Positions 39,840 through 48,083 of a stretch of DNA of 64,000 bases are shown piece after piece (positions within the stretch are counted from its first letter, which is position 1; each line of letters opens with the position of its first letter). The stretch comes from an uncultured Actinomycetes bacterium (GTDB lineage Bacteria > Actinomycetota > Thermoleophilia > Gaiellales > Gaiellaceae): contig OY970333.1 of NCBI GenBank assembly GCA_963717405.1, forward strand, positions 899,645 through 963,644, in the 5' to 3' direction. Position numbers and translations under genes: made by a program. Below the pieces are notes generated by a model. It was not told where the DNA came from and made no database searches. It saw only the letters and a program-made list of their open reading frames with translations.

Positions 39840-40538
39840 TTACACGGCGTCGCACACCCCGAGCCGGGCCGCGCGACGCTGCACGTCTGCGGCGTACTGG
39901 AGGACAGCGCCGGTCGGGGCGCCGCCGGATTTCTCCACGGCTCCGGGACCCGCGTTGTACGCCGCGAGCGCGAGCGCCAGGTCGCTGCCGTAGCGCTCGA
40001 GGAGACGCTCGAGGTACGTGGCCCCCGCGAGCACGTTCGAGGCCGGCCGCCGCGCGCCGTACCCGACCTCACGCGCAGTCGCAGGCATGACCTGCATGAG
40101 CCCGAGCGCCCCTGCCGAGGAACGCGCGCCTGCATCCATTGCGGACTCCTCCCATGCGACCGCGGCGAGCAGGGACAGGGGCACGCCCGTCTTGAGACTC
40201 GCCTCTGCGAAGGCGCTTCGAAAGCGCGACGGGATGGGGCAGCCGGCGGGAACGACCGCTGCTCCCGACCCCAGATTTACCCGAACAGACCTTGCGCCCG
40301 ACTGGGAGGGATCCGAGTCCGCAGCCGCGAGCGAGAAGCCCGCCCCGGTGACTGCTGCTGCAAGCAAAGCGCCGAGCGCGGCGATCCGGAGGCGGCTCGG
40401 GCGGCCGAGCCTCGACGGGCGACGACGACGAGCGTCGGCCAGCTCCCGCGAGCGCTCGAAGGCAGCGTCCATCTCGGCGAGGGTGTCTGGGGCGTCGGCC
40501 ACGGGGAGCCGGTCCCGTACCCGCCTCCTGCGCGGCAA
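39840..40538 (-). CDS. Lytic transglycosylase (SLT domain), secreted
   Basis: 232 aa with a membrane anchor 'IAALGALLAAAVTGAG'. The catalytic region is 'AVAWEESAMD...GALGLMQVMPATA...AAYNAGPGAV'. Confidence 0.8.
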   Translation of the reverse strand: MPRRRRVRDRLPVADAPDTLAEMDAAFERSRELADARRRRPSRLGRPSRLRIAALGALLAAAVTGAGFSLAAADSDPSQSGARSVRVNLGSGAAVVPAGCPIPSRFRSAFAEASLKTGVPLSLLAAVAWEESAMDAGARSSAGALGLMQVMPATAREVGYGARRPASNVLAGATYLERLLERYGSDLALALAAYNAGPGAVEKSGGAPTGAVLQYAADVQRRAARLGVCDAV

Positions 40539-40565: not shown

Positions 40566-41927
40566 CTAGAGCCGTCGGCGGACGATGCGGGAGACCTCGG
40601 CTGAGACGTTCCAGCGTGTCACGTAGGCCTTCCCGTCGAAAAGCTCAGTCGTCCAGAACCAGTAGTCGGTCTCGGGGCGCGCGACGGTGACGAGCTCGCG
40701 AACGGGTCCGCCCGCGAGCTCGCGGACAAAGAGCGTCGAGCCGCTCGGCAGGTCGCGCACCCAGGCCACCCGAGTCCTTGAGAGGGCCGGGTTGGCGAGG
40801 CGAGCGATCTCCGTCTTGAACGGAGCGGATCGAGCCTCCGTGGAGATCCGGTAGACGACGATCCGCGACCCCCTCGGCCCTGCGACGTGCCAGGCGATTC
40901 GATCGCCCGCGATCGTGGGCCGCCCGATCTCGACACCGTCGGGCTTCGAGGCGAGGAGGCGCTCGGTGTTGTCCTCCAGGTTGTAGAGGTGGAGCGTGTA
41001 GCGCTCGTGGCCGCCGTGATCTGGCCTGTTCAGGAAGGTGCGTTCGTGGCCGTAGAATTTCCTGTAGACGAGCCAGGGCCACTGCAACGCAGGCTCCTCG
41101 GCCGGGCCCGAGAGGCGCAAGACCTCCTCGGCGGTCCGCCAGCGGACGACTCGGACTCCGGCTGCGTCTTCGTAGGCGAGCACGCCGCGGTGGACGGCGG
41201 GTGACTCGGCGTCGGGGAAGACGACGTTTGGGCTGCCGTCTGCGGGCCGGACAACGACGCTCGGCGTCCCCGCGAAGCGCTGCGTGTAGGCAAAGGCCGG
41301 CGCATGCGCCGACGGGTCCATCTGGTCTCCGGGCCCGAGCGGCATCACGCCCGCACCGGCGACCGGGGACGCCGCGAGCAGGCACGCACAGGCGCCGAGC
41401 GCGACGGCGTTGACCCGCAAGACCGTGCTGCGCTGCGCAGACAGCCCTTCGGCGATCGCAGCCGGATCCGCACCGCGACGCGCCGGCAGCAAGAGCACGA
41501 CCGCCCGTCCGACGCCGTAAAGCGCGAACGCGACGGCGCCTGCGACCGGTCTTCCCAGAGCGAGAGCGGCGGCGCAGGCGACCCAGAAGGTCGCCACCGG
41601 CTGATACGTGAAGACGCCCAGGCCGAGTCCGGCTCCGTAGCCGACCGACCAGACGGGAAGAGGCAGCTCGGCCCGCCAGCGCTCGGGCACCTGGCGGCGC
41701 GACTGCGGGAGCGGCACCCGGAGGACCCCGGCCTCCCGAAGCGTCCCGAGGACGGCGAGAACGAGCGCCAGAACGAGAGCCGGCCCCGTGCCAACAGCGG
41801 CTCCGGCGAGGCCGAGCACGGCTCCGAGCGCGGCCGACGCGGCCACGGCGCCGAGCGCGAAGAGCGCGAGTGCGACGAGCTGGCGTTTGCGAGTCCCGCA
41901 CCCGGCGGGCGTGATGGTCTCCACCAT
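40566..41927 (-). CDS. Polytopic membrane domain (about 6 TM) fused to a ~260-aa extracytoplasmic repeat/beta-rich domain; third gene of the Mau-like module
   Basis: 453 aa. There are six hydrophobic segments in residues 15-195. After these come repeated patterns such as 'RVVRW', 'RIAWHV', 'RIVVYR' and 'RVAWVR', suggestive of propeller-like blades. No family is assigned. Confidence 0.6.
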   Translation of the reverse strand: MVETITPAGCGTRKRQLVALALFALGAVAASAALGAVLGLAGAAVGTGPALVLALVLAVLGTLREAGVLRVPLPQSRRQVPERWRAELPLPVWSVGYGAGLGLGVFTYQPVATFWVACAAALALGRPVAGAVAFALYGVGRAVVLLLPARRGADPAAIAEGLSAQRSTVLRVNAVALGACACLLAASPVAGAGVMPLGPGDQMDPSAHAPAFAYTQRFAGTPSVVVRPADGSPNVVFPDAESPAVHRGVLAYEDAAGVRVVRWRTAEEVLRLSGPAEEPALQWPWLVYRKFYGHERTFLNRPDHGGHERYTLHLYNLEDNTERLLASKPDGVEIGRPTIAGDRIAWHVAGPRGSRIVVYRISTEARSAPFKTEIARLANPALSRTRVAWVRDLPSGSTLFVRELAGGPVRELVTVARPETDYWFWTTELFDGKAYVTRWNVSAEVSRIVRRRL

Positions 41928-41998
41928 CGAGAGCCCTCAGGGGCTCCAGGCGCCCGAGATGCCCGCGACGAGTGCGGCGGTGCAGACCGCGGCCTCGA

Positions 41999-42601
41999 TC
42001 AGCACGGGAGCCCGGTGTCGTAGTACATGACGCAAAACACGTTTCGGGGCGCGTAGCAGTAGCCGCGGAGCGACGCGTCACCGTTGATCCGGATCCTGCT
42101 CTTGGAGCAGCAGTCGACGAGCTTGCGGATCTGGTCGTCGCAGCAGCGGTACCAGGCGCCCTGGATGATCGCGTCCTTGTGGCCGTAGCGCTCCTCGACC
42201 CACTCGTTGCAGATACGGGTTCGGGGCCCCTTCGGGAGCCGGCGGCCGTCAGGTCCGCGCAGACGCCGGCCTTCAGCGTCGATCGGGTAGCCGTTGGCGT
42301 TCACGAGCCGGCCGAGGTTGTCGATCGGCCTGCCGTCTCGCGGGCGGAGCGGGTAGCCGGCGGTGTCGATCCGGGGGAGGCGGTACGGGCTCGGGCACGA
42401 GCCGGTCGTGTAGATGTGGCCGCAGAAGTGGTAGGCGGACGCGTCCTCGGGCTTGACGGCGGCCGCGACGGCGCCTCCGCCGACGATGCCGAGCGCCGCG
42501 GCCCCGAGCCGCCCCAGGAACGAGCGTCGCGTCATCCCGGCGGCGAGGCCCGTGGCGAGAGCCTCACCCGCCTCCGCGAGGAGCTCGTCAGGCCGCCGCA
42601 C
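41999..42601 (-). CDS. Tat-signal, Cys-rich homologue of methylamine/aromatic-amine dehydrogenase light chain (MauA-like)
   Basis: Twin-arginine signal 'MTRRSFLGRLGAAALG' (alternative start ATG 42535). The mature ~145 aa contain 10 Cys. 'HFCGHIYTTGSC', 'CNEWVEERYGHKD' and 'WYRCCDD' align by eye to MauA 'RHCSIDGNIC', 'ASWVASCYNPTDG' and 'AYRDCCG'. Confidence 0.7.
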   Translation of the reverse strand: MRRPDELLAEAGEALATGLAAGMTRRSFLGRLGAAALGIVGGGAVAAAVKPEDASAYHFCGHIYTTGSCPSPYRLPRIDTAGYPLRPRDGRPIDNLGRLVNANGYPIDAEGRRLRGPDGRRLPKGPRTRICNEWVEERYGHKDAIIQGAWYRCCDDQIRKLVDCCSKSRIRINGDASLRGYCYAPRNVFCVMYYDTGLPC

Positions 42602-43469
42602 GCACGCTCCTCGCTGTTCCGACGCTGATCAGGCCCTCGAGCTGCTCGAGGGTGTTGACGAGCCCCTTCGCGGCGACGACCCCGTCGACGACGTGGACGA
42701 CGAACGGGCTCCCCGGTACGTTCCAGATGCGGAACGCATCGGGCTCCCGAGCCTCGTCCACAACGTGGACCGAGACGCCGTCCCGCCCGAGCGCCAGGAC
42801 GCCCGGCAAGAGCTCGTGGCAGAGCCGGCACGTCGGCGAGACAAAGGCGATGAGCTCGGAGCCACGGCTCCCGAGCGCAGCGAGCCCGGGAGCCCGGGAG
42901 CCGAGCTCGGGGCCCTCTCCCTCCAGCTCGAGCGCCCCCTGGGCGGGCCCGATCCGGAGGTGCAGAAGCCCGACCTGGCGGTAGAGCGCGAGGACGAGCA
43001 CGGCGAGGGCGAGCACGGCGAGGGCGAGCACAGCGACAGCGGCCAAAAGCCCGGCCTCACGGGAGATCGGCGGGGATCCGTAGGCGGTCGCCGCGGCGGC
43101 GAGGCCGGCGAGGCCGGTAAAGGCGAGCGCGCGGGCGAGGAGGAAGCCCGTCGAGCGTTCCGCGCCACCGAAACAGCCACAGCGAAGCCGTTGCACCCCC
43201 GAGGCGCGTACGCGTACGACTGCAGCCACGAAGACGAAGCCGAGCCCGGTCGCGGCGAGCGAGGCCGCGAGAGGCGCGACACCGGCAAGGAGCAGACCCC
43301 CCAGGACTGCTTCGGCCCCGACCAGCGTGGCGGCGGCGGGCCCGGCGAGCTCTGCTCGGAGCCCGTAGCCGCGCATGACCTCCGGCAGGTCCGCGCGGGA
43401 GCGCGCCTTGGCCGCGGCCGCGGCAAGCAAGACGAGTCCGACCCCGAGGCGGAGGGCGACGTCCACCAC
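42588..43469 (-). CDS. MauE-type membrane protein fused to a MauD-like thioredoxin-fold domain
   Basis: 293 aa. The N-terminal part is multi-TM with 'RLRCGCFGG' (MauE CGCFG motif). The C-terminal part has 'FVSPTCRLC' (CxxC) and 'AKGLVNTLEQLEGLI' (MauD-like tail). Confidence 0.75.
   Translation of the reverse strand: MVDVALRLGVGLVLLAAAAAKARSRADLPEVMRGYGLRAELAGPAAATLVGAEAVLGGLLLAGVAPLAASLAATGLGFVFVAAVVRVRASGVQRLRCGCFGGAERSTGFLLARALAFTGLAGLAAAATAYGSPPISREAGLLAAVAVLALAVLALAVLVLALYRQVGLLHLRIGPAQGALELEGEGPELGSRAPGLAALGSRGSELIAFVSPTCRLCHELLPGVLALGRDGVSVHVVDEAREPDAFRIWNVPGSPFVVHVVDGVVAAKGLVNTLEQLEGLISVGTARSVRAAA
42988..43032. repeat. 15-bp in-frame tandem repeat, 3 copies, inside the MauE-MauD gene
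   Basis: The units are GCGAGGACGAGCACG / GCGAGGGCGAGCACG / GCGAGGGCGAGCACA. They encode the (LALAV)n part of the transmembrane helix 'AVAVLALAVLALAVLVLAL'. Confidence 0.8.
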
Positions 43470-43518: not shown

Positions 43519-46293
43519 TTACGGGTCGACGGAGGGGCGGATCTGGGACGTCTCGAAGAGGTGCAGGAACGCCTCGACTACGCGAGGGTCGAACTGCGTG
43601 CCCGAGTGCTCCCGGAGCCGCCGGAGCGCTTCCTCGACCGGAAGCCGGCCGCGGTAGGGCCGGTCGGTCGTCATCGCGTGGAAGGCGTCGCAGACGAGGA
43701 TGATCCGAGACTCGATGGGAATGCCCTCGGCCTTCCGCCCGTCCGGATAGCCGCCGCCGTCGAAGCGCTCGTGGCAATGGCGGACGATCGGCCTGACGTC
43801 GGCGAGACGGACGATCGGTGCCAGGATCCGCTCGCCGAGCTCCGGGTGGAGCTGCATGGTCTGCCGCTCCTCCTCGGTCAGCGGACCCGGCTTCAGGAGG
43901 ATCTCCGACGGAATGCCGATCTTCCCGATGTCGTGAAAGTGGGCGCCGAGCTCGAGCCGCTTCAGGCCTGCCGGGTCGAGGCCGAGCTCCGAGCCCACGC
44001 GGAGGGCCATGTCGGTGATCGCCCGCGTATGGGAGGAGGTGTCCTCGTCCCGTGCCTCGAGCGCGTTGGCGAGCGCCTCGACCGTTGAGAGGAAGGTCTG
44101 CTCGAGGCTCTCGTAGTTCGTCGCATTCGCGATCGCGAGCTTGGCCTGGTGCGCGATCCCGTCGAGGAGCCGCATCGTGCGGTCCGAGAGGCGCGGCTTC
44201 CGTGCATCCTTCATGACCGCGACGATGAAGCCCTTCCGCCCGCCGTCGAGAGGGATCGGCGCAACGGCGAACCGTCGTCCGTCGTCGGCCGAGTCGATAT
44301 CCGGGAGGCCCTCGAGCTCCTCGGGCGTCAGCGTGAAGGGCCGCTCGCGCCTGACGAGCCGCTCCACCGCCGAGGAAGGGATCCGGAGCTGCTCGATCCG
44401 CGACCGCTCCTCCCCGTCGTAGCCCCAGAAGGCTCGCACCGAAATGTCGCCGCCGGTTGTCTCTTGCATCCAGAACGAAGTGCGGGACGAGCCGAGAATC
44501 TTGGTCGTCTGCCCGACGAGCCGCTCGAGGACCAGGTCGAGATCCTCGGCCTGAGCGAGCTGACGCGAGAGCTGGAGGAGCGCGTTCGCGATCTCGGCGC
44601 TCTCCTTCGCGCCCTCGGCCTCCCGCCGCTGCGCTTCGTAGAGCCGCGCGTTCTCGATCGCGACCGAGGCGTGGCCGGCGAGTACCTCGAGGAGACGCAC
44701 GTCGTCGTCGTCGAACTGGCCCACGCCGAGCTTCGAGATCACGACTACGCCGATGATGCGGGCGCCGTAGCGCAGGGGCACGGCGACCATCGACTCCTCG
44801 ATGTCGTCGGTGCCCGGAATCGTGACGGCGAACGCGCACTCGAGCGCGTTCTCGACGAGGAGGGACTCGCCGGTCACGCCGACCCGTCCGGTGATCCCCT
44901 CGCCGAGCTTGCAACGGAGCGCCTCGGCGGTCTCCTCTCCGTACACGTCGGCGTCGTCGCGGAACGCGACCGGAATGAGATCGTCGTGACCCTCGCGCAC
45001 GTAGACACGGCACGCGTGGTAGTCCAGGAGGCCGCGAAGCTCGTTCACGATCACCTCGCCGATCCTGGTGACGTCGTTCAGCCGGTTGAGCTTGCCGGCG
45101 AGGCTCTGGAGCATCTTGAGGTGGGCGATGGAGCGCACGTCGCGTGGGCGCGGCGACTGGATCTCCGGCCGGCCCTCGGTCAGGTCGGCGAAGACGACGG
45201 CCTGGTCCTTGCCCTGGGACTTGGCGGTCATCATCGCCGTCTCCGCGTAGGCGACGAGCTCGCGCGGATTCGTGGCGTCCCCTGGCCCCTCGGCGATCCC
45301 GGCCGAGACGGTGATCCTGCCTACGCCCTCTAGCTCTGCGCGGGCGAGCCGCGCTGCGATTCGCTCGGCGAGCCCCAGCGCAGAGGCCGAATCCGAGGAG
45401 GGCAGGACGACTGCAAACTCCTCGCCACCGATCCGGCAGACGATGTCGGAGCCCCGGACCACGGAGCGCAGAATGTCCCCGAGCGCGACGAGGACGTGGT
45501 CTCCCGTCCCGTGGCCGTGGACGTCGTTCACCTTCTTGAAGTCGTCGATGTCGAGCATGAGGATGCTGACCAGGTCCTGGGCCCGGCTGGCCCGTGTCAG
45601 CTCGGCGCGGATCCGGTCGTGGAAGAAGCGGTGGTTCCAGAGCCCGGTCAGGGAGTCGGTCTGAGCCTGCTGCTCGAGCTGGGCACGGATCTCTGCGTTG
45701 TCGAGCGCGAGCGCGACGGCGTCACCGCAACGCTTCACGAGCTCGAACTCCTCCTCGGTGAAGCGAGCGCCCTCGCCGAGGCGGTGGACGTTCAGGGAGC
45801 CCTTGACGGTGCCGCGCGCGACGAGGGGGACGACGATCATCGACTCGGGCTCGTCGTCGGGCGTGCCGGGTACGACGGTGAGGCGCGGGTCGAGGTGCGC
45901 GTCGTTCACGAGGACGGCCTCGCGTCGCTCGACCGCCCAGCCCGTGATCCCTTCGCCGAACGCGAGCGGCGACTCCATGATCTCGGCGGCCCAGCTGTCG
46001 CGGGCCATCTCGGGGACGAGCAGGCGGCGCGCCTCGTCGGTCCGGTAGACCGTCAGCGTGTCGCAGGGCACGAGGTCGGACACCGCGTCGAAGATGAGGT
46101 CGAGCAGGTCGTCGAGGCCCTGCTCGGAAAGGAGGTCGTGGAAGACGTCCGCCAGACGGAGGTACGGCGCGAGGGTGCCCTCGTGGTGCTCGCGCCCCTC
46201 TTCGAAACGCCGCGGCACGCGGCGGCCCCCGGCGCCTGGGAACCGGAGCAGGCGGGCCGTGCGGCCCGACGACGTCATGGCAGGATCCTCCAT
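43519..46293 (-). CDS. GAF-GGDEF-GAF-GAF-HD-GYP multidomain c-di-GMP signalling protein
   Basis: An active-site-type 'RIGGEEFAVVLP' is present. The C-terminal HD-GYP domain has 'HTRAITDMA...HFHDIGKIGIP...HHERFDGGGYPDG'-like motifs ('HCHERFDGGGYPDG'). The likely start is ATG 46293 or 46278. The track start at 46428 would overlap the divergent polX. Confidence 0.85.
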   Translation of the reverse strand: MEDPAMTSSGRTARLLRFPGAGGRRVPRRFEEGREHHEGTLAPYLRLADVFHDLLSEQGLDDLLDLIFDAVSDLVPCDTLTVYRTDEARRLLVPEMARDSWAAEIMESPLAFGEGITGWAVERREAVLVNDAHLDPRLTVVPGTPDDEPESMIVVPLVARGTVKGSLNVHRLGEGARFTEEEFELVKRCGDAVALALDNAEIRAQLEQQAQTDSLTGLWNHRFFHDRIRAELTRASRAQDLVSILMLDIDDFKKVNDVHGHGTGDHVLVALGDILRSVVRGSDIVCRIGGEEFAVVLPSSDSASALGLAERIAARLARAELEGVGRITVSAGIAEGPGDATNPRELVAYAETAMMTAKSQGKDQAVVFADLTEGRPEIQSPRPRDVRSIAHLKMLQSLAGKLNRLNDVTRIGEVIVNELRGLLDYHACRVYVREGHDDLIPVAFRDDADVYGEETAEALRCKLGEGITGRVGVTGESLLVENALECAFAVTIPGTDDIEESMVAVPLRYGARIIGVVVISKLGVGQFDDDDVRLLEVLAGHASVAIENARLYEAQRREAEGAKESAEIANALLQLSRQLAQAEDLDLVLERLVGQTTKILGSSRTSFWMQETTGGDISVRAFWGYDGEERSRIEQLRIPSSAVERLVRRERPFTLTPEELEGLPDIDSADDGRRFAVAPIPLDGGRKGFIVAVMKDARKPRLSDRTMRLLDGIAHQAKLAIANATNYESLEQTFLSTVEALANALEARDEDTSSHTRAITDMALRVGSELGLDPAGLKRLELGAHFHDIGKIGIPSEILLKPGPLTEEERQTMQLHPELGERILAPIVRLADVRPIVRHCHERFDGGGYPDGRKAEGIPIESRIILVCDAFHAMTTDRPYRGRLPVEEALRRLREHSGTQFDPRVVEAFLHLFETSQIRPSVDP

Positions 46294-46394
46294 CGAACGC
46301 GCGCGCGCGCCGGAATCGGCACTCGAGGGAGCATCGTGAGGTTCACCTCCTGCCTGAATAGCTCCGCCGGGGGAACCAGAGGCTACGACGCGGC

Positions 46395-48083
46395 GTGAGC
46401 GACTCCTCCCCCGAGCCTGCCGAAACACTCACCAACGCAGCCGTTGCGGAACGGCTCGAGGCCTTCGCCGGGCTCCTCGAGCTGGCCGGTGCGAGCCCGT
46501 ACTCGACGCGCGCGTACCGTCGGGCGGCGGAGCTCGCCCGCGCGGCTCGACGCACCGCTCGCCGAGCTCGTCCGGTCCGGCCGCGTGCGCGAGCTCCGCG
46601 GCATCGGCCCGGGAATCGAGGCGAGGCTCCGCGAGCTCGTCGAGACCGGACGGATCGCCGAGCTCGAAGAGCTCGAGCGCGAGGTCTCCCCCGCCCTGGT
46701 CGGCGTCGGCCGCTTGATCGGCATCGGACCGCAGCGCATGGTGGAGATCGGCCGGACGCTCGGGATCCGGACCGCAGCGGAGCTTCGGGAGGCCGCGCGG
46801 GCAGGCCGGCTCGCGGCCGTTCCCGGGATCGGCCCGAAGACGGAGGCCCGTATTCACGAGGCGCTCGAGCGGCCGACGGAACCGCGCCCGCCTCGCGCCC
46901 TCCTCCTGAACCGGAGCCGGCCGCTCGTCGAGGAGATCGCCGCGGCTCTCGGCGGAGAACCGGCCGGCGAGCCACGCCGCTGGCGCGACGCATCGGAGCG
47001 ACTCGCCGTGGTCGTATCGCCGAGGACCCGGCGCCCGCCTTCGCGGCCTTCGGCGCACTTCCGCAGATCGTCGCCGTCGTGGCGCGACGGAGGAGCGGCG
47101 CGCGACAGGCGTCACCGTCGAAGGCGTCCCGGTCGAGCTCGTCGTCGCGGAACCCGGACGGTTCGGCACCGAGCTCGTGCGCGCGACGGGCTCCCCCGCG
47201 TACGTGGCCGAGCTCGGGCCGCTGCCGGATGCACCAGACGAGGAGGGCGTCTACCGCCGGCTCGGCATCCCGTGGTGCCCGCCCGAGCTCCGGGAGTCGC
47301 CCTTCAGGGGCGAGCCACCGCGTCTCCTCGAGCTCTCCGACCTCCGCGGCGACCTCCACTGCCACACGACGTGGTCGGACGGCACGCGCCAGCGTCCTCG
47401 AGATGGCTGCGGCCGCACGCGAGCGCGGCTACGAGTACCTCGCGATCTGCGACCACACGCCCAACGTTCGCGTCGTGCCCGGGCCTGGACGCAGATGCGA
47501 TCCGCCGCCAGGGAGAGGAGATCGCGGCCGCGAACGAGGAGCTCGCCCCCTTTCGGCGTTCTGCGCGGCGACCGAGTGCGACATCCTGCCCGACGGGTCG
47601 CTCGACCTCCCGACGACGTCCTCGCCGAGCTCGACTGGGTGCAGGCCAGCCTGCACGCGGGCCAGCGGCGGCCGCGGCGGCGAGCTGACGAAGCAGGTCG
47701 TCGAGGCCGTGCGACACCCGTTCATCTCGTGCGCTCAGCCACCCCACCGGCCGGTCTGATCAACCACCGGCCTCCGAACGCGCTCGATCTCGACGAGGTG
47801 TTCGAGGTCGCCGTCGAGACCGGAGATCGCGCTCGAGGTGAACGGCCTCCCAGACCGGCTCGACCTGATCGGGGAGAACGTGAGGCGACTCGATCGCGGA
47901 CGCAGGCGTTGGGATCGTGGTCTCGACCGACGCACATTCGTTCGCGGGCTCGGGAACATGCAGCTCGCAGTGGCGACGGCACGCCGGGGGTGCGACTCGC
48001 GGCTGCCGACGTCCTCAACACGCAACCGCTCCCGGAGGTTCTCCCGCCCGCGGCTGACCGCGGGCGCCTCGACCAGGTGGTGA
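46395..48083 (+). pseudogene. polX: Family X DNA polymerase with PHP domain, disrupted by a dozen or more frame changes
   Basis: Recognisable PolX/PHP segments alternate among all three frames. Examples are 'NAAVAERLEAFAGLLELAGASPYSTRAYRRAAEL' (frame of 46395), 'LRGIGPGIEARLRELVETGRIAELEELE...VPGIGPKTEARI' (frame of 46444), 'VELVVAEPGRFGTELVRATGSPAYV...LHCHTTWSDG' (frame of 47177), 'ASVLEMAAAARERGYEYLAICDHTPN', 'TECDILPDGSLDLP', 'DDVLAELDWVQASLH', 'LINHRPPNALDLDEVFEVAVETG', 'ALEVNGLPDRLDL' and 'GLGNMQLAVATARRG'. The 3' end is uncertain. Confidence 0.8.

What the first reader, a model, noticed from the sequence alone, without database searches (positions are those of the whole stretch)
41999..42601. 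The MauA-like protein keeps the quinone Trp position but apparently not the cross-linking Trp
I aligned this protein by eye to my recollection of Paracoccus MauA (W57 in 'ASWVASCY', 'AYRDCC', W108 in 'DIIWCFG').

- 'CNEWVEERYGHKDAIIQGAWYRCC' places a Trp at the W57-equivalent position, with matching V58, Y62, D66 and Y74-R75-CC.
- The W108-equivalent position falls on 'RNVFCVMYY', which gives Phe instead of Trp.
- There are 10 Cys rather than 12, and a ~55-aa Arg/Pro/Gly-rich insertion ('RLPRIDTAGYPLRPRDGRPIDNLGRLVNANGYPIDAEGRRLRGPDGRRLPKGPRTR').

This would be compatible with a different cross-link (for example Cys-Trp as in CTQ enzymes) or with no quinone at all. Either outcome would be new for this fold.
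Basis: inference. Interest (0 to 1): 0.6.

Follow-up and report, generated by a model that had tools for sequence, protein, structure and literature searches.

The report
Exported ten-cysteine protein, not MauA
This gene encodes an unannotated, widely conserved, exported ten-cysteine protein. It borrows the export leader and helper genes of methylamine dehydrogenase, but it shows no detectable likeness to that enzyme's small subunit and cannot carry its two-tryptophan quinone cofactor.

Summary
The ORF (41999-42601, minus strand, 200 aa) is real, and every quoted string is present. The headline claim fails. The Trp taken as the quinone Trp (W134) is found in only 109 of 204 family members, and in 2 of 21 homologues from other classes. 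Many members have a single Trp, so TTQ is impossible.

- **Invariant residues:** the only invariant Trp is W150 (G-x-W-x-R-C-C). Also invariant are ten Cys, D163-C-C, R-I-N-G-D and Y181.
- **No MauA match in the mature part:** Pfam, NCBIfam, PDB sequence and profile searches, HHalign (probability 1.5-2.4%) and Foldseek on a good AF2 model all fail to link it to MauA.
- **What is MauA-like:** the roughly 56-residue twin-arginine leader (HHalign 95-96%) and the operon. The operon holds a MauE(CXC)-MauD(CXXC) fusion upstream and a true MauF homologue downstream (HHalign 98.8%).
- **TTQ machinery missing:** MauB, MauG and MauA are not found here, nor in four 95-99% complete carrier genomes.

My best reading is a disulfide-rich exported cargo of a stripped-down Mau-type maturation module, without TTQ. 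A new cofactor on W150 is not excluded.

In passing, the MauF gene carries an in-frame TGA at a Cys/Sec position.

The scan has met this family before in other genomes.

The parts
42588..43469 (-). MauE-MauD fusion protein (293 aa). It has a DsbB-like membrane oxidase domain fused to a thioredoxin-fold domain. It overlaps the target's start by 14 nt.
   Evidence: PF07291 MauE 5.5e-18 over residues 4-126. TIGR02661 MauD 1.7e-13 and Thioredoxin_3 are weak hits. It is the only MauE in the genome.
43173..43181 (-). C-G-C motif (residues 97-99) followed by F-G. This is the MauE active-site CXC.
   Evidence: Position. The motif and its role are described in preprint 10.64898/2026.03.05.709764.
42819..42830 (-). 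C-R-L-C (residues 214-217), the CXXC of the thioredoxin-like MauD domain.
   Evidence: The domain was called.
41999..42601 (-). The target gene: a 200-aa precursor of an exported ten-cysteine protein (GTG start).
   Evidence: There is no Pfam, NCBIfam or PDB sequence match.
42434..42601 (-). Leader, residues 1-56. It has a ~22-residue N-region, the T-R-R-S-F-L-G-R-L-G twin-arginine motif, a hydrophobic core, and a likely A-S-A cleavage site before Y57.
   Evidence: HHalign against the MauA leader gives 95.5-96.4% probability, E 1e-8 to 1e-9. The pre-RR segment alone gives 82%, E 1e-5. The cleavage site is inferred.
42215..42379 (-). Arg/Pro/Gly-rich 'insertion' (residues 75-129). It consists of about six 7-8-residue D-x-x-G turn units, predicted as stacked beta-hairpins.
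   Evidence: AF2 gives pLDDT about 90-97 with beta bridges every 7 residues. Residues ~103-124 are absent from other-class homologues.
42200..42202 (-). It is not conserved.
   Evidence: W in 109 of 204 sequences, gap or other residue in 95. V/L/T/M/I in 19 of 21 other-class homologues. It lies in predicted helix 130-139.
42152..42154 (-). W150 codon, the only family-invariant Trp, in the motif G-x-W-[YS]-R-C-C.
   Evidence: 204 of 204 and 86 of 86 in the combined alignment. It lies in predicted strand 145-154.
42035..42037 (-).
   Evidence: F in 200 and Y in 4 of 204. It aligns to W108 only in the non-significant HHalign extension.
40566..42005 (-). MauF homologue fused to a ~250-aa extracytoplasmic domain. 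The revised gene model starts at GTG 42005, overlaps the target's stop by 7 nt (GTGCTGA) and gives 479 codons.
   Evidence: BLASTP against P. denitrificans MauF gives 2e-5. HHalign gives 98.8%, E 1e-16 over 141 columns. Orthologues show the same 7-nt overlap. The N-terminal extension was read.
41937..41939 (-). In-frame TGA in the motif W-S-P-[U/C]-G-L-S-M of the MauF homologue. It is a candidate selenocysteine codon.
   Evidence: The same column is TGC or TGT in 10 orthologous loci and TGA in 10. P. denitrificans MauF has W-S-P-C-G at Cys79. The genome holds selA, selB and tRNA-SeC.
41907..41936 (-). Hairpin directly after the TGA (inner stem GAUGGU/ACCAUC, loop GGAG). It is a SECIS-like candidate.
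   Evidence: Fold. The inner hairpin recurs in the TGA-bearing loci and not in the Cys loci.

Best explanation
The gene encodes the exported, disulfide-rich cargo of a stripped-down Mau-type maturation module. It is not a functional, TTQ-bearing methylamine dehydrogenase light chain.

**Proposed sequence of events**
1. The precursor is made with a ~56-residue MauA-type twin-arginine leader.
2. It is exported and cleaved near A-S-A/Y57.
3. Its ten invariant cysteines are oxidised to five disulfides by the co-translated MauE(CXC)-MauD(CXXC) fusion. That fusion acts as a DsbB/DsbA-like pair and passes the electrons to the membrane quinone pool.
4. The MauF homologue acts in the same maturation step at the membrane. 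Its single conserved W-S-P-Cys/Sec-G residue probably works as a thiol or selenol proofreader or carrier.

**The product**
The mature ~144-residue protein is a compact domain made of a stack of short beta-hairpins, one helix and a three-stranded sheet. An invariant surface or core is built from H-x-C-G-H, W150, R152, D163, R-I-N-G-D and Y181. No quinone is made, because the second Trp, MauG and MauB are all missing.

**Shown:** gene reality, conservation pattern, leader homology, MauE/MauD/MauF identity, and absence of the TTQ machinery.
**Inferred:** the disulfides, the order of events, the role of MauF, and the final function of the mature protein. I take that function to be a binding or structural envelope protein.
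For: **Family and conservation**
- The family is large and tightly conserved, and it has no annotation.
- All ten Cys are invariant. W150 is invariant. W134 is not.
- 65 of 203 full-length members have a single Trp in the whole precursor. 15 of 21 other-class mature domains have a single Trp.

**Links to the Mau system**
- The leader is homologous to the MauA leader.
- The upstream gene is a MauE + MauD fusion with CXC-FG and CXXC motifs.
- MauE has been shown experimentally to replace DsbB through its CXC motif. About 8% of MauE proteins are fused to thioredoxin-fold domains (10.64898/2026.03.05.709764).
- The downstream gene is a true MauF homologue.

**Operon conservation**
- The three genes overlap.
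- They travel together in unrelated neighbourhoods.
- They also stay together in other classes where the gene order is shuffled.
- The family was found in 50 of 401 genomes of the phylum, concentrated in a few families (24 of 26 and 11 of 22).

**A dedicated oxidase**
- The genome has a VKOR elsewhere and only this one MauE, so the MauE-MauD pair looks dedicated to this operon.
- TatC is present.

**TTQ machinery absent**
- MauA, MauB and MauG are not found here.
- They are not found in four near-complete carrier genomes either, with a positive control.
Against: - No experiment bears on this protein. Disulfides versus metal ligation is an inference.
- I could not inspect the model's coordinates, so Cys pairing and the surroundings of W150 are unknown.
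- A Tat-type leader usually signals export of a folded, often cofactor-bearing protein. That fits awkwardly with oxidation after export, although MauA itself is the precedent.
- The invariance of W150, D163 and Y181 is what one would expect of an active site, so an enzymatic or cofactor role is not excluded.
- This genome scores only 61% complete by marker genes despite being one contig, so absences in it alone are weak. For that reason I added the four better genomes.
Confidence: 0.7

Rival explanations
1. It is a very divergent true MauA descendant whose invariant W150 is converted into a new protein-derived cofactor. Candidates are a Trp quinone, or a Trp-Cys or Trp-Tyr cross-link with C153/C154 or Y181. 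The cofactor would be made autocatalytically or by an unlinked enzyme, giving a small extracytoplasmic redox enzyme.
For: - W150, R152, D163-C-C and Y181 are invariant in 204 + 30 sequences spanning several classes.
- D-C-C is the one motif HHalign pairs with MauA's catalytic R-D-C-C (P about 0.02-0.03).
- The leader and the MauE/D/F helpers are those of a cofactor-bearing subunit.
Against: - The mature-domain similarity is not significant.
- No MADH chain appears among the Foldseek hits.
- No MauG, flavoprotein or radical-SAM gene is in the operon, and MauG is not found in carrier genomes.
- The even, invariant number of Cys leaves none spare for a Cys-Trp link if all are paired.
Confidence: 0.12
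2. It is a metal- or cluster-binding protein that is folded and loaded in the cytoplasm and exported by Tat. Some of the ten Cys and the H-x-C-G-H histidines would serve as ligands rather than forming disulfides.
For: - It has a twin-arginine leader, and TatC is present.
- The H-x-C-G-H-x-x-T-T-x-x-C-P-x-P motif is invariant.
Against: - It is tightly coupled to a dedicated disulfide-forming MauE-MauD pair even though a VKOR exists elsewhere.
- The C-C doublets and their spacing match no known Fe-S, heme or copper motif (my knowledge).
- MauA shows that this leader type goes with disulfide-rich cargo.
Confidence: 0.08
3. It is a secreted RiPP-like or antimicrobial cysteine-rich peptide precursor. 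This would resemble the MauE/MauD-associated Cys-rich precursors proposed in Streptomyces.
For: decRiPPter found MauE/MauD homologues next to predicted precursors with at least 8 Cys in Streptomyces genomes that lack the rest of the mau cluster (PMC7794033).
Against: - The mature part is about 126-144 residues and predicted with high confidence as a folded domain.
- It is extremely conserved across genera and classes.
- It was single-copy in this genome and in the sampled carriers, apart from one genome with tandem copies.
- It is set among housekeeping genes with no protease, transporter or immunity gene.
Confidence: 0.04

Closest known systems
Methylamine / aromatic amine dehydrogenase light chain (MauA/AauA; Pfam PF02975; TTQ cofactor; P. 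denitrificans mauA in locus L001)
   Same: - A long twin-arginine leader of about 56 residues with a conserved N-region (HHalign 95-96%).
- A small, cysteine-rich, exported protein.
- Encoded next to MauE, MauD and MauF homologues.
- A D-C-C motif is present.
   Different: - The mature part shows no profile or fold similarity.
- It has 10 Cys rather than 12.
- Neither TTQ Trp is conserved, and many members have one Trp only.
- There is no MauB partner, no MauG and no amicyanin.
- It carries a lineage-specific hairpin-repeat region.
- It occurs in Actinomycetota rather than in methylotrophic Pseudomonadota.
MauE-centred oxidative folding pathway (MauE as a DsbB analogue with a CXC site; preprint 10.64898/2026.03.05.709764)
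   Same: The upstream gene has the C-G-C-F-G motif and is fused to a CXXC thioredoxin-fold domain. This is the arrangement the preprint reports for about 8% of MauE proteins.
   Different: The preprint presents MauE as a generalist oxidase. Here it is the genome's only MauE, sits beside a VKOR-containing background, and is translationally coupled to one specific ten-Cys substrate and a MauF homologue.
MauE/MauD-associated cysteine-rich precursor clusters of Streptomyces (decRiPPter candidate RiPP families; PMC7794033)
   Same: MauE/MauD homologues sit next to a Cys-rich small ORF in Actinobacteria that lack the rest of the mau cluster.
   Different: Sequence relatedness was not tested. Here the cargo is a ~144-residue folded domain with a MauA-type leader and a MauF partner, not a short peptide.
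CTQ-bearing gamma subunit of quinohemoprotein amine dehydrogenase (QhpC), and LodA/GoxA
   Same: A small Cys-containing protein in which a Trp could in principle be cross-linked to a Cys.
   Different: - There is no sequence match.
- No radical-SAM (QhpD) or flavoprotein (QhpG/LodB) gene is in the operon.
- The even Cys number fits disulfides.

Membership tests
MauA / TTQ light chain (PF02975, TIGR02659) | Sequence match of the mature domain to the family profile | tested here: not met
   - No PF02975 hit at E<=10.
- No NCBIfam hit.
- No six-frame hit in the genome.
- HHalign of the mature parts gives 1.5-2.4%.
- Reciprocal HMM searches give a best E of 0.014 among 239 sequences.
MauA / TTQ light chain (PF02975, TIGR02659) | Two conserved Trp that form TTQ (W57 and W108 in P. 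denitrificans numbering) | tested here: not met
   - Both Trp are invariant in 24 MauA sequences (W114 and W165 of the precursor).
- In this family only W150 is invariant.
- W134 is present in 109 of 204.
- 65 of 203 precursors have one Trp.
MauA / TTQ light chain (PF02975, TIGR02659) | Twelve Cys forming six disulfides | tested here: not met
   There are ten invariant Cys with a different spacing. The pairing itself was not testable.
MauA / TTQ light chain (PF02975, TIGR02659) | Long MauA-type twin-arginine leader | tested here: met
   HHalign 95.5-96.4% over 33-35 columns. The pre-RR part alone gives 82%, E 1e-5.
MauA / TTQ light chain (PF02975, TIGR02659) | Heavy-chain partner MauB (PF06433) | tested here: not met
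   Not found in the own genome or in four 95-99% complete carrier genomes. The P. denitrificans control scores 2e-212. BLASTP of the C-terminal domain of the MauF fusion against MauB shows no similarity.
MauA / TTQ light chain (PF02975, TIGR02659) | MauG di-heme enzyme for TTQ synthesis (PF03150) | tested here: not met
   Not found in the own genome or in the four carrier genomes. The control scores 2e-43.
MauA / TTQ light chain (PF02975, TIGR02659) | Adjacent accessory genes mauE, mauD and mauF | tested here: met
   MauE 5.5e-18 and MauD 1.7e-13. MauF by HHalign 98.8%, E 1e-16, with a shared W-S-P-C-G motif. The genes stay together across classes.
MauA / TTQ light chain (PF02975, TIGR02659) | Light-chain fold | tested here: inconclusive
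   The AF2 model is good for residues 71-200 (pLDDT about 90). Foldseek against the PDB gives no hit better than E 0.59, and no MADH or AADH chain is among the 50 listed. Foldseek is weak on small disulfide-rich folds, and I could not superpose coordinates.
CTQ proteins (QhpC of QHNDH; LodA/GoxA) | Dedicated modifying enzymes in the cluster (radical-SAM QhpD, flavoprotein QhpG or LodB/GoxB) | tested here: not met
   The operon holds only the MauE-MauD fusion, the target and the MauF fusion. Flanking genes differ between genomes and none is of these kinds.
Substrates of the MauE/thioredoxin-fold oxidative folding pathway | An exported Cys-rich protein encoded with a MauE bearing CXC-FG and a CXXC thioredoxin-fold partner | tested here: met
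   C-G-C-F-G is at residues 97-101 and C-R-L-C at 214-217 of the upstream protein. The target has a leader and ten invariant Cys. Actual oxidation by MauE-MauD is not testable with these tools.

The most novel reading that the evidence does not exclude
The invariant W150 becomes a new protein-derived redox cofactor, perhaps together with D163 and Y181 or a neighbouring Cys. It would be made without MauG, turning this small exported protein into the catalytic unit of an undescribed extracytoplasmic oxidoreductase that is widespread in soil Actinomycetota. A selenocysteine-containing MauF would help to mature it.
Probability: 0.1. Interest if true: 0.85.

Novelty: new variant of a known kind. 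Interest (0 to 1): 0.42.

Why it matters
- **A natural experiment on the Mau helpers.** The roles of the MauA leader, MauF and the MauE/MauD pair in building the methylamine dehydrogenase small subunit have been unclear for about 30 years. Here the same leader and the same three helpers serve a different, much simpler cargo, with no heavy chain and no cofactor enzyme. This separates 'export and disulfide formation' from 'cofactor synthesis'.
- **A defined substrate for MauE.** The system offers a specific natural substrate for the newly proposed MauE oxidative-folding pathway.
- **A reactive residue in MauF.** Cys/Sec interchange points to one residue in MauF as the reactive one.
- **A gap in annotation.** The cargo family itself has thousands of members and no annotation.
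- **For the finding as written.** The specific tryptophan argument does not hold.

Tried and rejected
1. **Direct family and structure-by-sequence searches.** I ran Pfam at E<=10, NCBIfam, PDB phmmer and a PDB profile search. None gave a MauA hit.
2. **HHalign of whole proteins.** Only the leader aligns. With leaders trimmed, in local, greedy and global modes, and with a broader 86-sequence profile, nothing is significant.
3. **First AF2 run.** With 23 close homologues the model was too poor to use (pLDDT 55.7). The second run with 56 more diverse sequences was good, but Foldseek against the PDB found nothing.
4. **Model coordinates.** They are not readable in the Python box. I therefore could not derive disulfide pairing or contacts of W150, or superpose on a MADH light chain.
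5. **Representative-library search with a family profile.** It found only family members, many of them frameshifted or fused gene calls, and no bridge to MauA among the 150 listed.
6. **C-terminal domain of the MauF fusion.** It has no PDB sequence match and no BLASTP similarity to MauB. I rejected the idea that it is a universal heavy-chain substitute, because other-class operons have a MauF of only ~196 aa without that domain.
7. **Literature.** Searches for MauF with TTQ terms found nothing useful.
8. **Alternative mapping.** I considered W150~W57, D163~D76, Y181~W108, which earlier scan notes on other genomes favour. No alignment method produced it, so it remains an untested idea.

Full report
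**1. The observation**

The ORF at 41999-42601 (minus strand, GTG start) encodes 200 residues.
- C-N-E-W-V...G-A-W-Y-R-C-C is at residues 131-154.
- R-N-V-F-C-V-M-Y-Y is at residues 186-194.
- There are ten Cys (60, 69, 131, 153, 154, 164, 165, 182, 190, 200) and two Trp (134, 150).
- An Arg/Pro/Gly-rich stretch spans about residues 75-129.

The gene is clearly real.
- A word-indexed search found 2233 homologues. The best 120 are 67-87% identical over the full length. All are unnamed or 'hypothetical' and carry no Pfam domain, and the few that are named come from Gaiellaceae and other actinobacterial MAGs.
- A second large subfamily was reached from a distant member. It includes Solirubrobacteraceae.

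**2. Is it MauA-like?**

Direct tests say no for the mature protein.
- PF02975 does not match even at E<=10.
- NCBIfam gives nothing relevant.
- PDB phmmer and a PDB profile search find no MADH or AADH chain.

To make a proper profile comparison I took the genuine mauA from the P. denitrificans PD1222 plasmid. I collected 120 MauA relatives and aligned 24 of them (A2).
- HHalign of the family against A2 aligns only residues 6-38 with MauA 5-37, which is the leader (probability 95.5-96.4%, E 1e-8 to 1e-9).
- With leaders trimmed, the best local match is 7-12 columns around V-D-C-C / R-D-C-C (probability 1.5-2.4%, P about 0.02-0.03).
- Reciprocal HMM searches of the mature parts give nothing significant.

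Only when HHalign is forced to extend greedily does it produce W134~W57, F189-C190~W108-C109 and C200~C121. In that same alignment MauA's R-D-C-C pairs with D163-C164-C165, and the W-Y-R-C-C strand becomes an insertion.

**3. Conservation decides the Trp question**

I examined 204 full-length members.
- W150 is invariant (204 of 204).
- W134 is present in 109 and missing from the whole second subfamily.
- F189 is F in 200 and Y in 4.
- All ten Cys are essentially invariant.
- 65 of 203 precursors contain a single Trp.

A six-frame search of 401 genomes of the phylum found the family in 50. It is concentrated in a few families (24 of 26 and 11 of 22). The homologues from other classes lack residues ~103-124. 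In 21 such homologues:
- position 134 is V/L/T/M/I, with W in only 2;
- W150 is invariant;
- the mature part has exactly ten Cys;
- in 15 of the 21 there is only one Trp.

A two-tryptophan cofactor is therefore impossible for much of the family.

Family-wide invariants are H-x-C-G-H-x-x-T-T-x-x-C-P-x-P, R77, G-x-W150-x-R-C-C, D163-C-C, R-I-N-G-D, G-Y181-C and V-F-C.

**4. Structure**
- With 23 close homologues AF2 was poor (pLDDT 55.7).
- With 56 more diverse sequences the mature part, residues 71-200, reached about 90 (mean 76.9, pTM 0.65).
- The 'insertion' is predicted with high confidence as a stack of short hairpins with beta bridges every 7 residues. This matches about six D-x-x-G units seen in the sequence.
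- Next come helix 130-139, which contains W134, hairpin 145-154/157-166, which contains W150 and both C-C doublets, and strand 187-199, which contains F189.
- Foldseek against the PDB gave no hit better than E 0.59, and no MADH or AADH chain among the 50 listed.
- The coordinates could not be read, so Cys pairing and the neighbours of W150 remain unknown.

**5. What is MauA-like: the leader and the operon**

The pre-RR N-region alone aligns to MauA's at 82% probability (E 1e-5). The RR core aligns at 96.6%, but that part is largely generic Tat motif. TatC is present in the genome.

*Upstream gene (42588-43469).* It overlaps the target's start.
- It is a MauE (PF07291, 5.5e-18) fused to a MauD-like thioredoxin domain (TIGR02661, 1.7e-13).
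- It has C-G-C-F-G at residues 97-101 and C-R-L-C at 214-217.
- A 2026 preprint shows experimentally that MauE replaces DsbB in E. coli through its CXC motif, and that about 8% of MauE proteins are fused to thioredoxin-fold proteins (10.64898/2026.03.05.709764).
- This genome has a VKOR elsewhere and only this one MauE, so the pair looks dedicated to this operon.

*Downstream gene.* It is a true MauF homologue.
- BLASTP gives 2e-5.
- HHalign of 18 orthologues against P. denitrificans MauF gives 98.8%, E 1e-16 over 141 columns.

*Operon conservation.*
- The three genes travel together in unrelated neighbourhoods.
- In other classes the parts are shuffled but stay together. One family has MauD, the target, a 196-aa MauF and a divergently transcribed MauE. 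Another has a MauF-MauE fusion.
- The ~250-residue C-terminal domain of the window's MauF fusion is therefore lineage-specific and not a universal partner. It resembles neither MauB nor any PDB sequence.

**6. TTQ machinery**
- MauA, MauB and MauG profiles find nothing in this genome.
- Because the genome scores only 61% complete, I repeated the three searches on four carrier genomes that are 95-99% complete, with the P. denitrificans plasmid as a control.
- The control gave hits for all three (3.6e-54, 2.4e-212, 1.7e-43). The four genomes gave hits for none.

**7. Reading**

The best-supported explanation is an exported, five-disulfide protein matured by a minimal Mau-type module of leader, MauE-MauD and MauF, without TTQ.

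Homology of the mature part to MauA is possible given the leader, the helpers and the shared D-C-C, but it is not demonstrable.

The rivals cannot be excluded without chemistry. They are a new cofactor on W150, a Tat-exported metal protein, and a RiPP-like peptide as proposed for MauE/MauD-linked Cys-rich ORFs in Streptomyces (PMC7794033). I rate them 0.12, 0.08 and 0.04.

**8. Noticed on the way**

Following a lead from an earlier scan note on another genome, I translated upstream of the annotated start of the MauF gene.
- The frame continues to a GTG at 42005, which overlaps the target's stop (GTGCTGA). It contains an in-frame TGA at 41939-41937 in the motif W-S-P-*-G-L-S-M.
- The same column is TGC or TGT in 10 orthologous loci and TGA in 10.
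- P. denitrificans MauF has T-W-S-P-C-G at Cys79.
- The genome holds selA (4e-123), selB (2e-15) and tRNA-SeC side by side.
- A hairpin (GAUGGU-GGAG-ACCAUC) 11 nt after the TGA recurs in the TGA loci only.

The MauF homologue is therefore very probably a selenoprotein here, and this marks that residue as MauF's reactive centre.

**9. Earlier scan notes**

Earlier notes show that this family has been met several times in other genomes, with verdicts ranging from 'not a MauA relative' to 'divergent MauA with Tyr for Trp'.
- My tests agree with the former for the mature domain.
- They also confirm the invariant Trp, Asp and Tyr reported by others.
- They do not reproduce any significant alignment that would make W150 the quinone Trp.

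Noticed in passing
window 41937-41939 (TGA), 40566-42005 (-), hairpin 41907-41936: The MauF homologue downstream of the target starts 78 nt further upstream than the plain ORF, at GTG 42005, which overlaps the target's stop. It carries an in-frame TGA in W-S-P-*-G-L-S-M. Orthologues have Cys (10 loci) or TGA (10 loci) at this position, and P. denitrificans MauF has Cys79 in the same motif. A hairpin follows the TGA in the TGA loci only. This is a likely selenocysteine.
   Followed up: yes
own genome G000:C1:1543163-1547452 (outside the window): selA (E 4e-123), selB winged-helix domain (E 2e-15) and tRNA-SeC (anticodon tca) lie side by side, so the organism can insert selenocysteine.
   Followed up: partly
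L047:3605-4735 and L049:3497-4612 (other-class genomes); L039:2703-4544: In other classes of the phylum the same parts are rearranged. One family has a MauF-MauE fusion (about 375 aa) after the target. Another has a separate MauD-like gene, the target and a 196-aa MauF, with MauE transcribed divergently about 0.7 kb upstream.
   Followed up: partly
G236:C11:11166-12361 (locus L009): One same-class genome has two or three adjacent copies or fragments of the target gene (three matches in tandem).
   Followed up: no
own genome G000:C1:2260502-2261123; the whole genome: A second TatC copy is split over two frames. The single-contig 2.7-Mb genome scores only 61% complete by marker genes. This suggests many indel errors or pseudogenes, so absences in this genome alone should be read with care.
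   Followed up: no
window 43519-46428 (-): A 969-aa protein with three GAF domains, a GGDEF domain and an HD-GYP domain lies 49 nt upstream of the MauE-MauD gene on the same strand. In other genomes the neighbours differ, so a link to the module is doubtful.
   Followed up: partly
window 39840-40538 (-): An SLT-domain lytic transglycosylase (PF01464, 3.6e-26) lies directly downstream of the module on the same strand.
   Followed up: no
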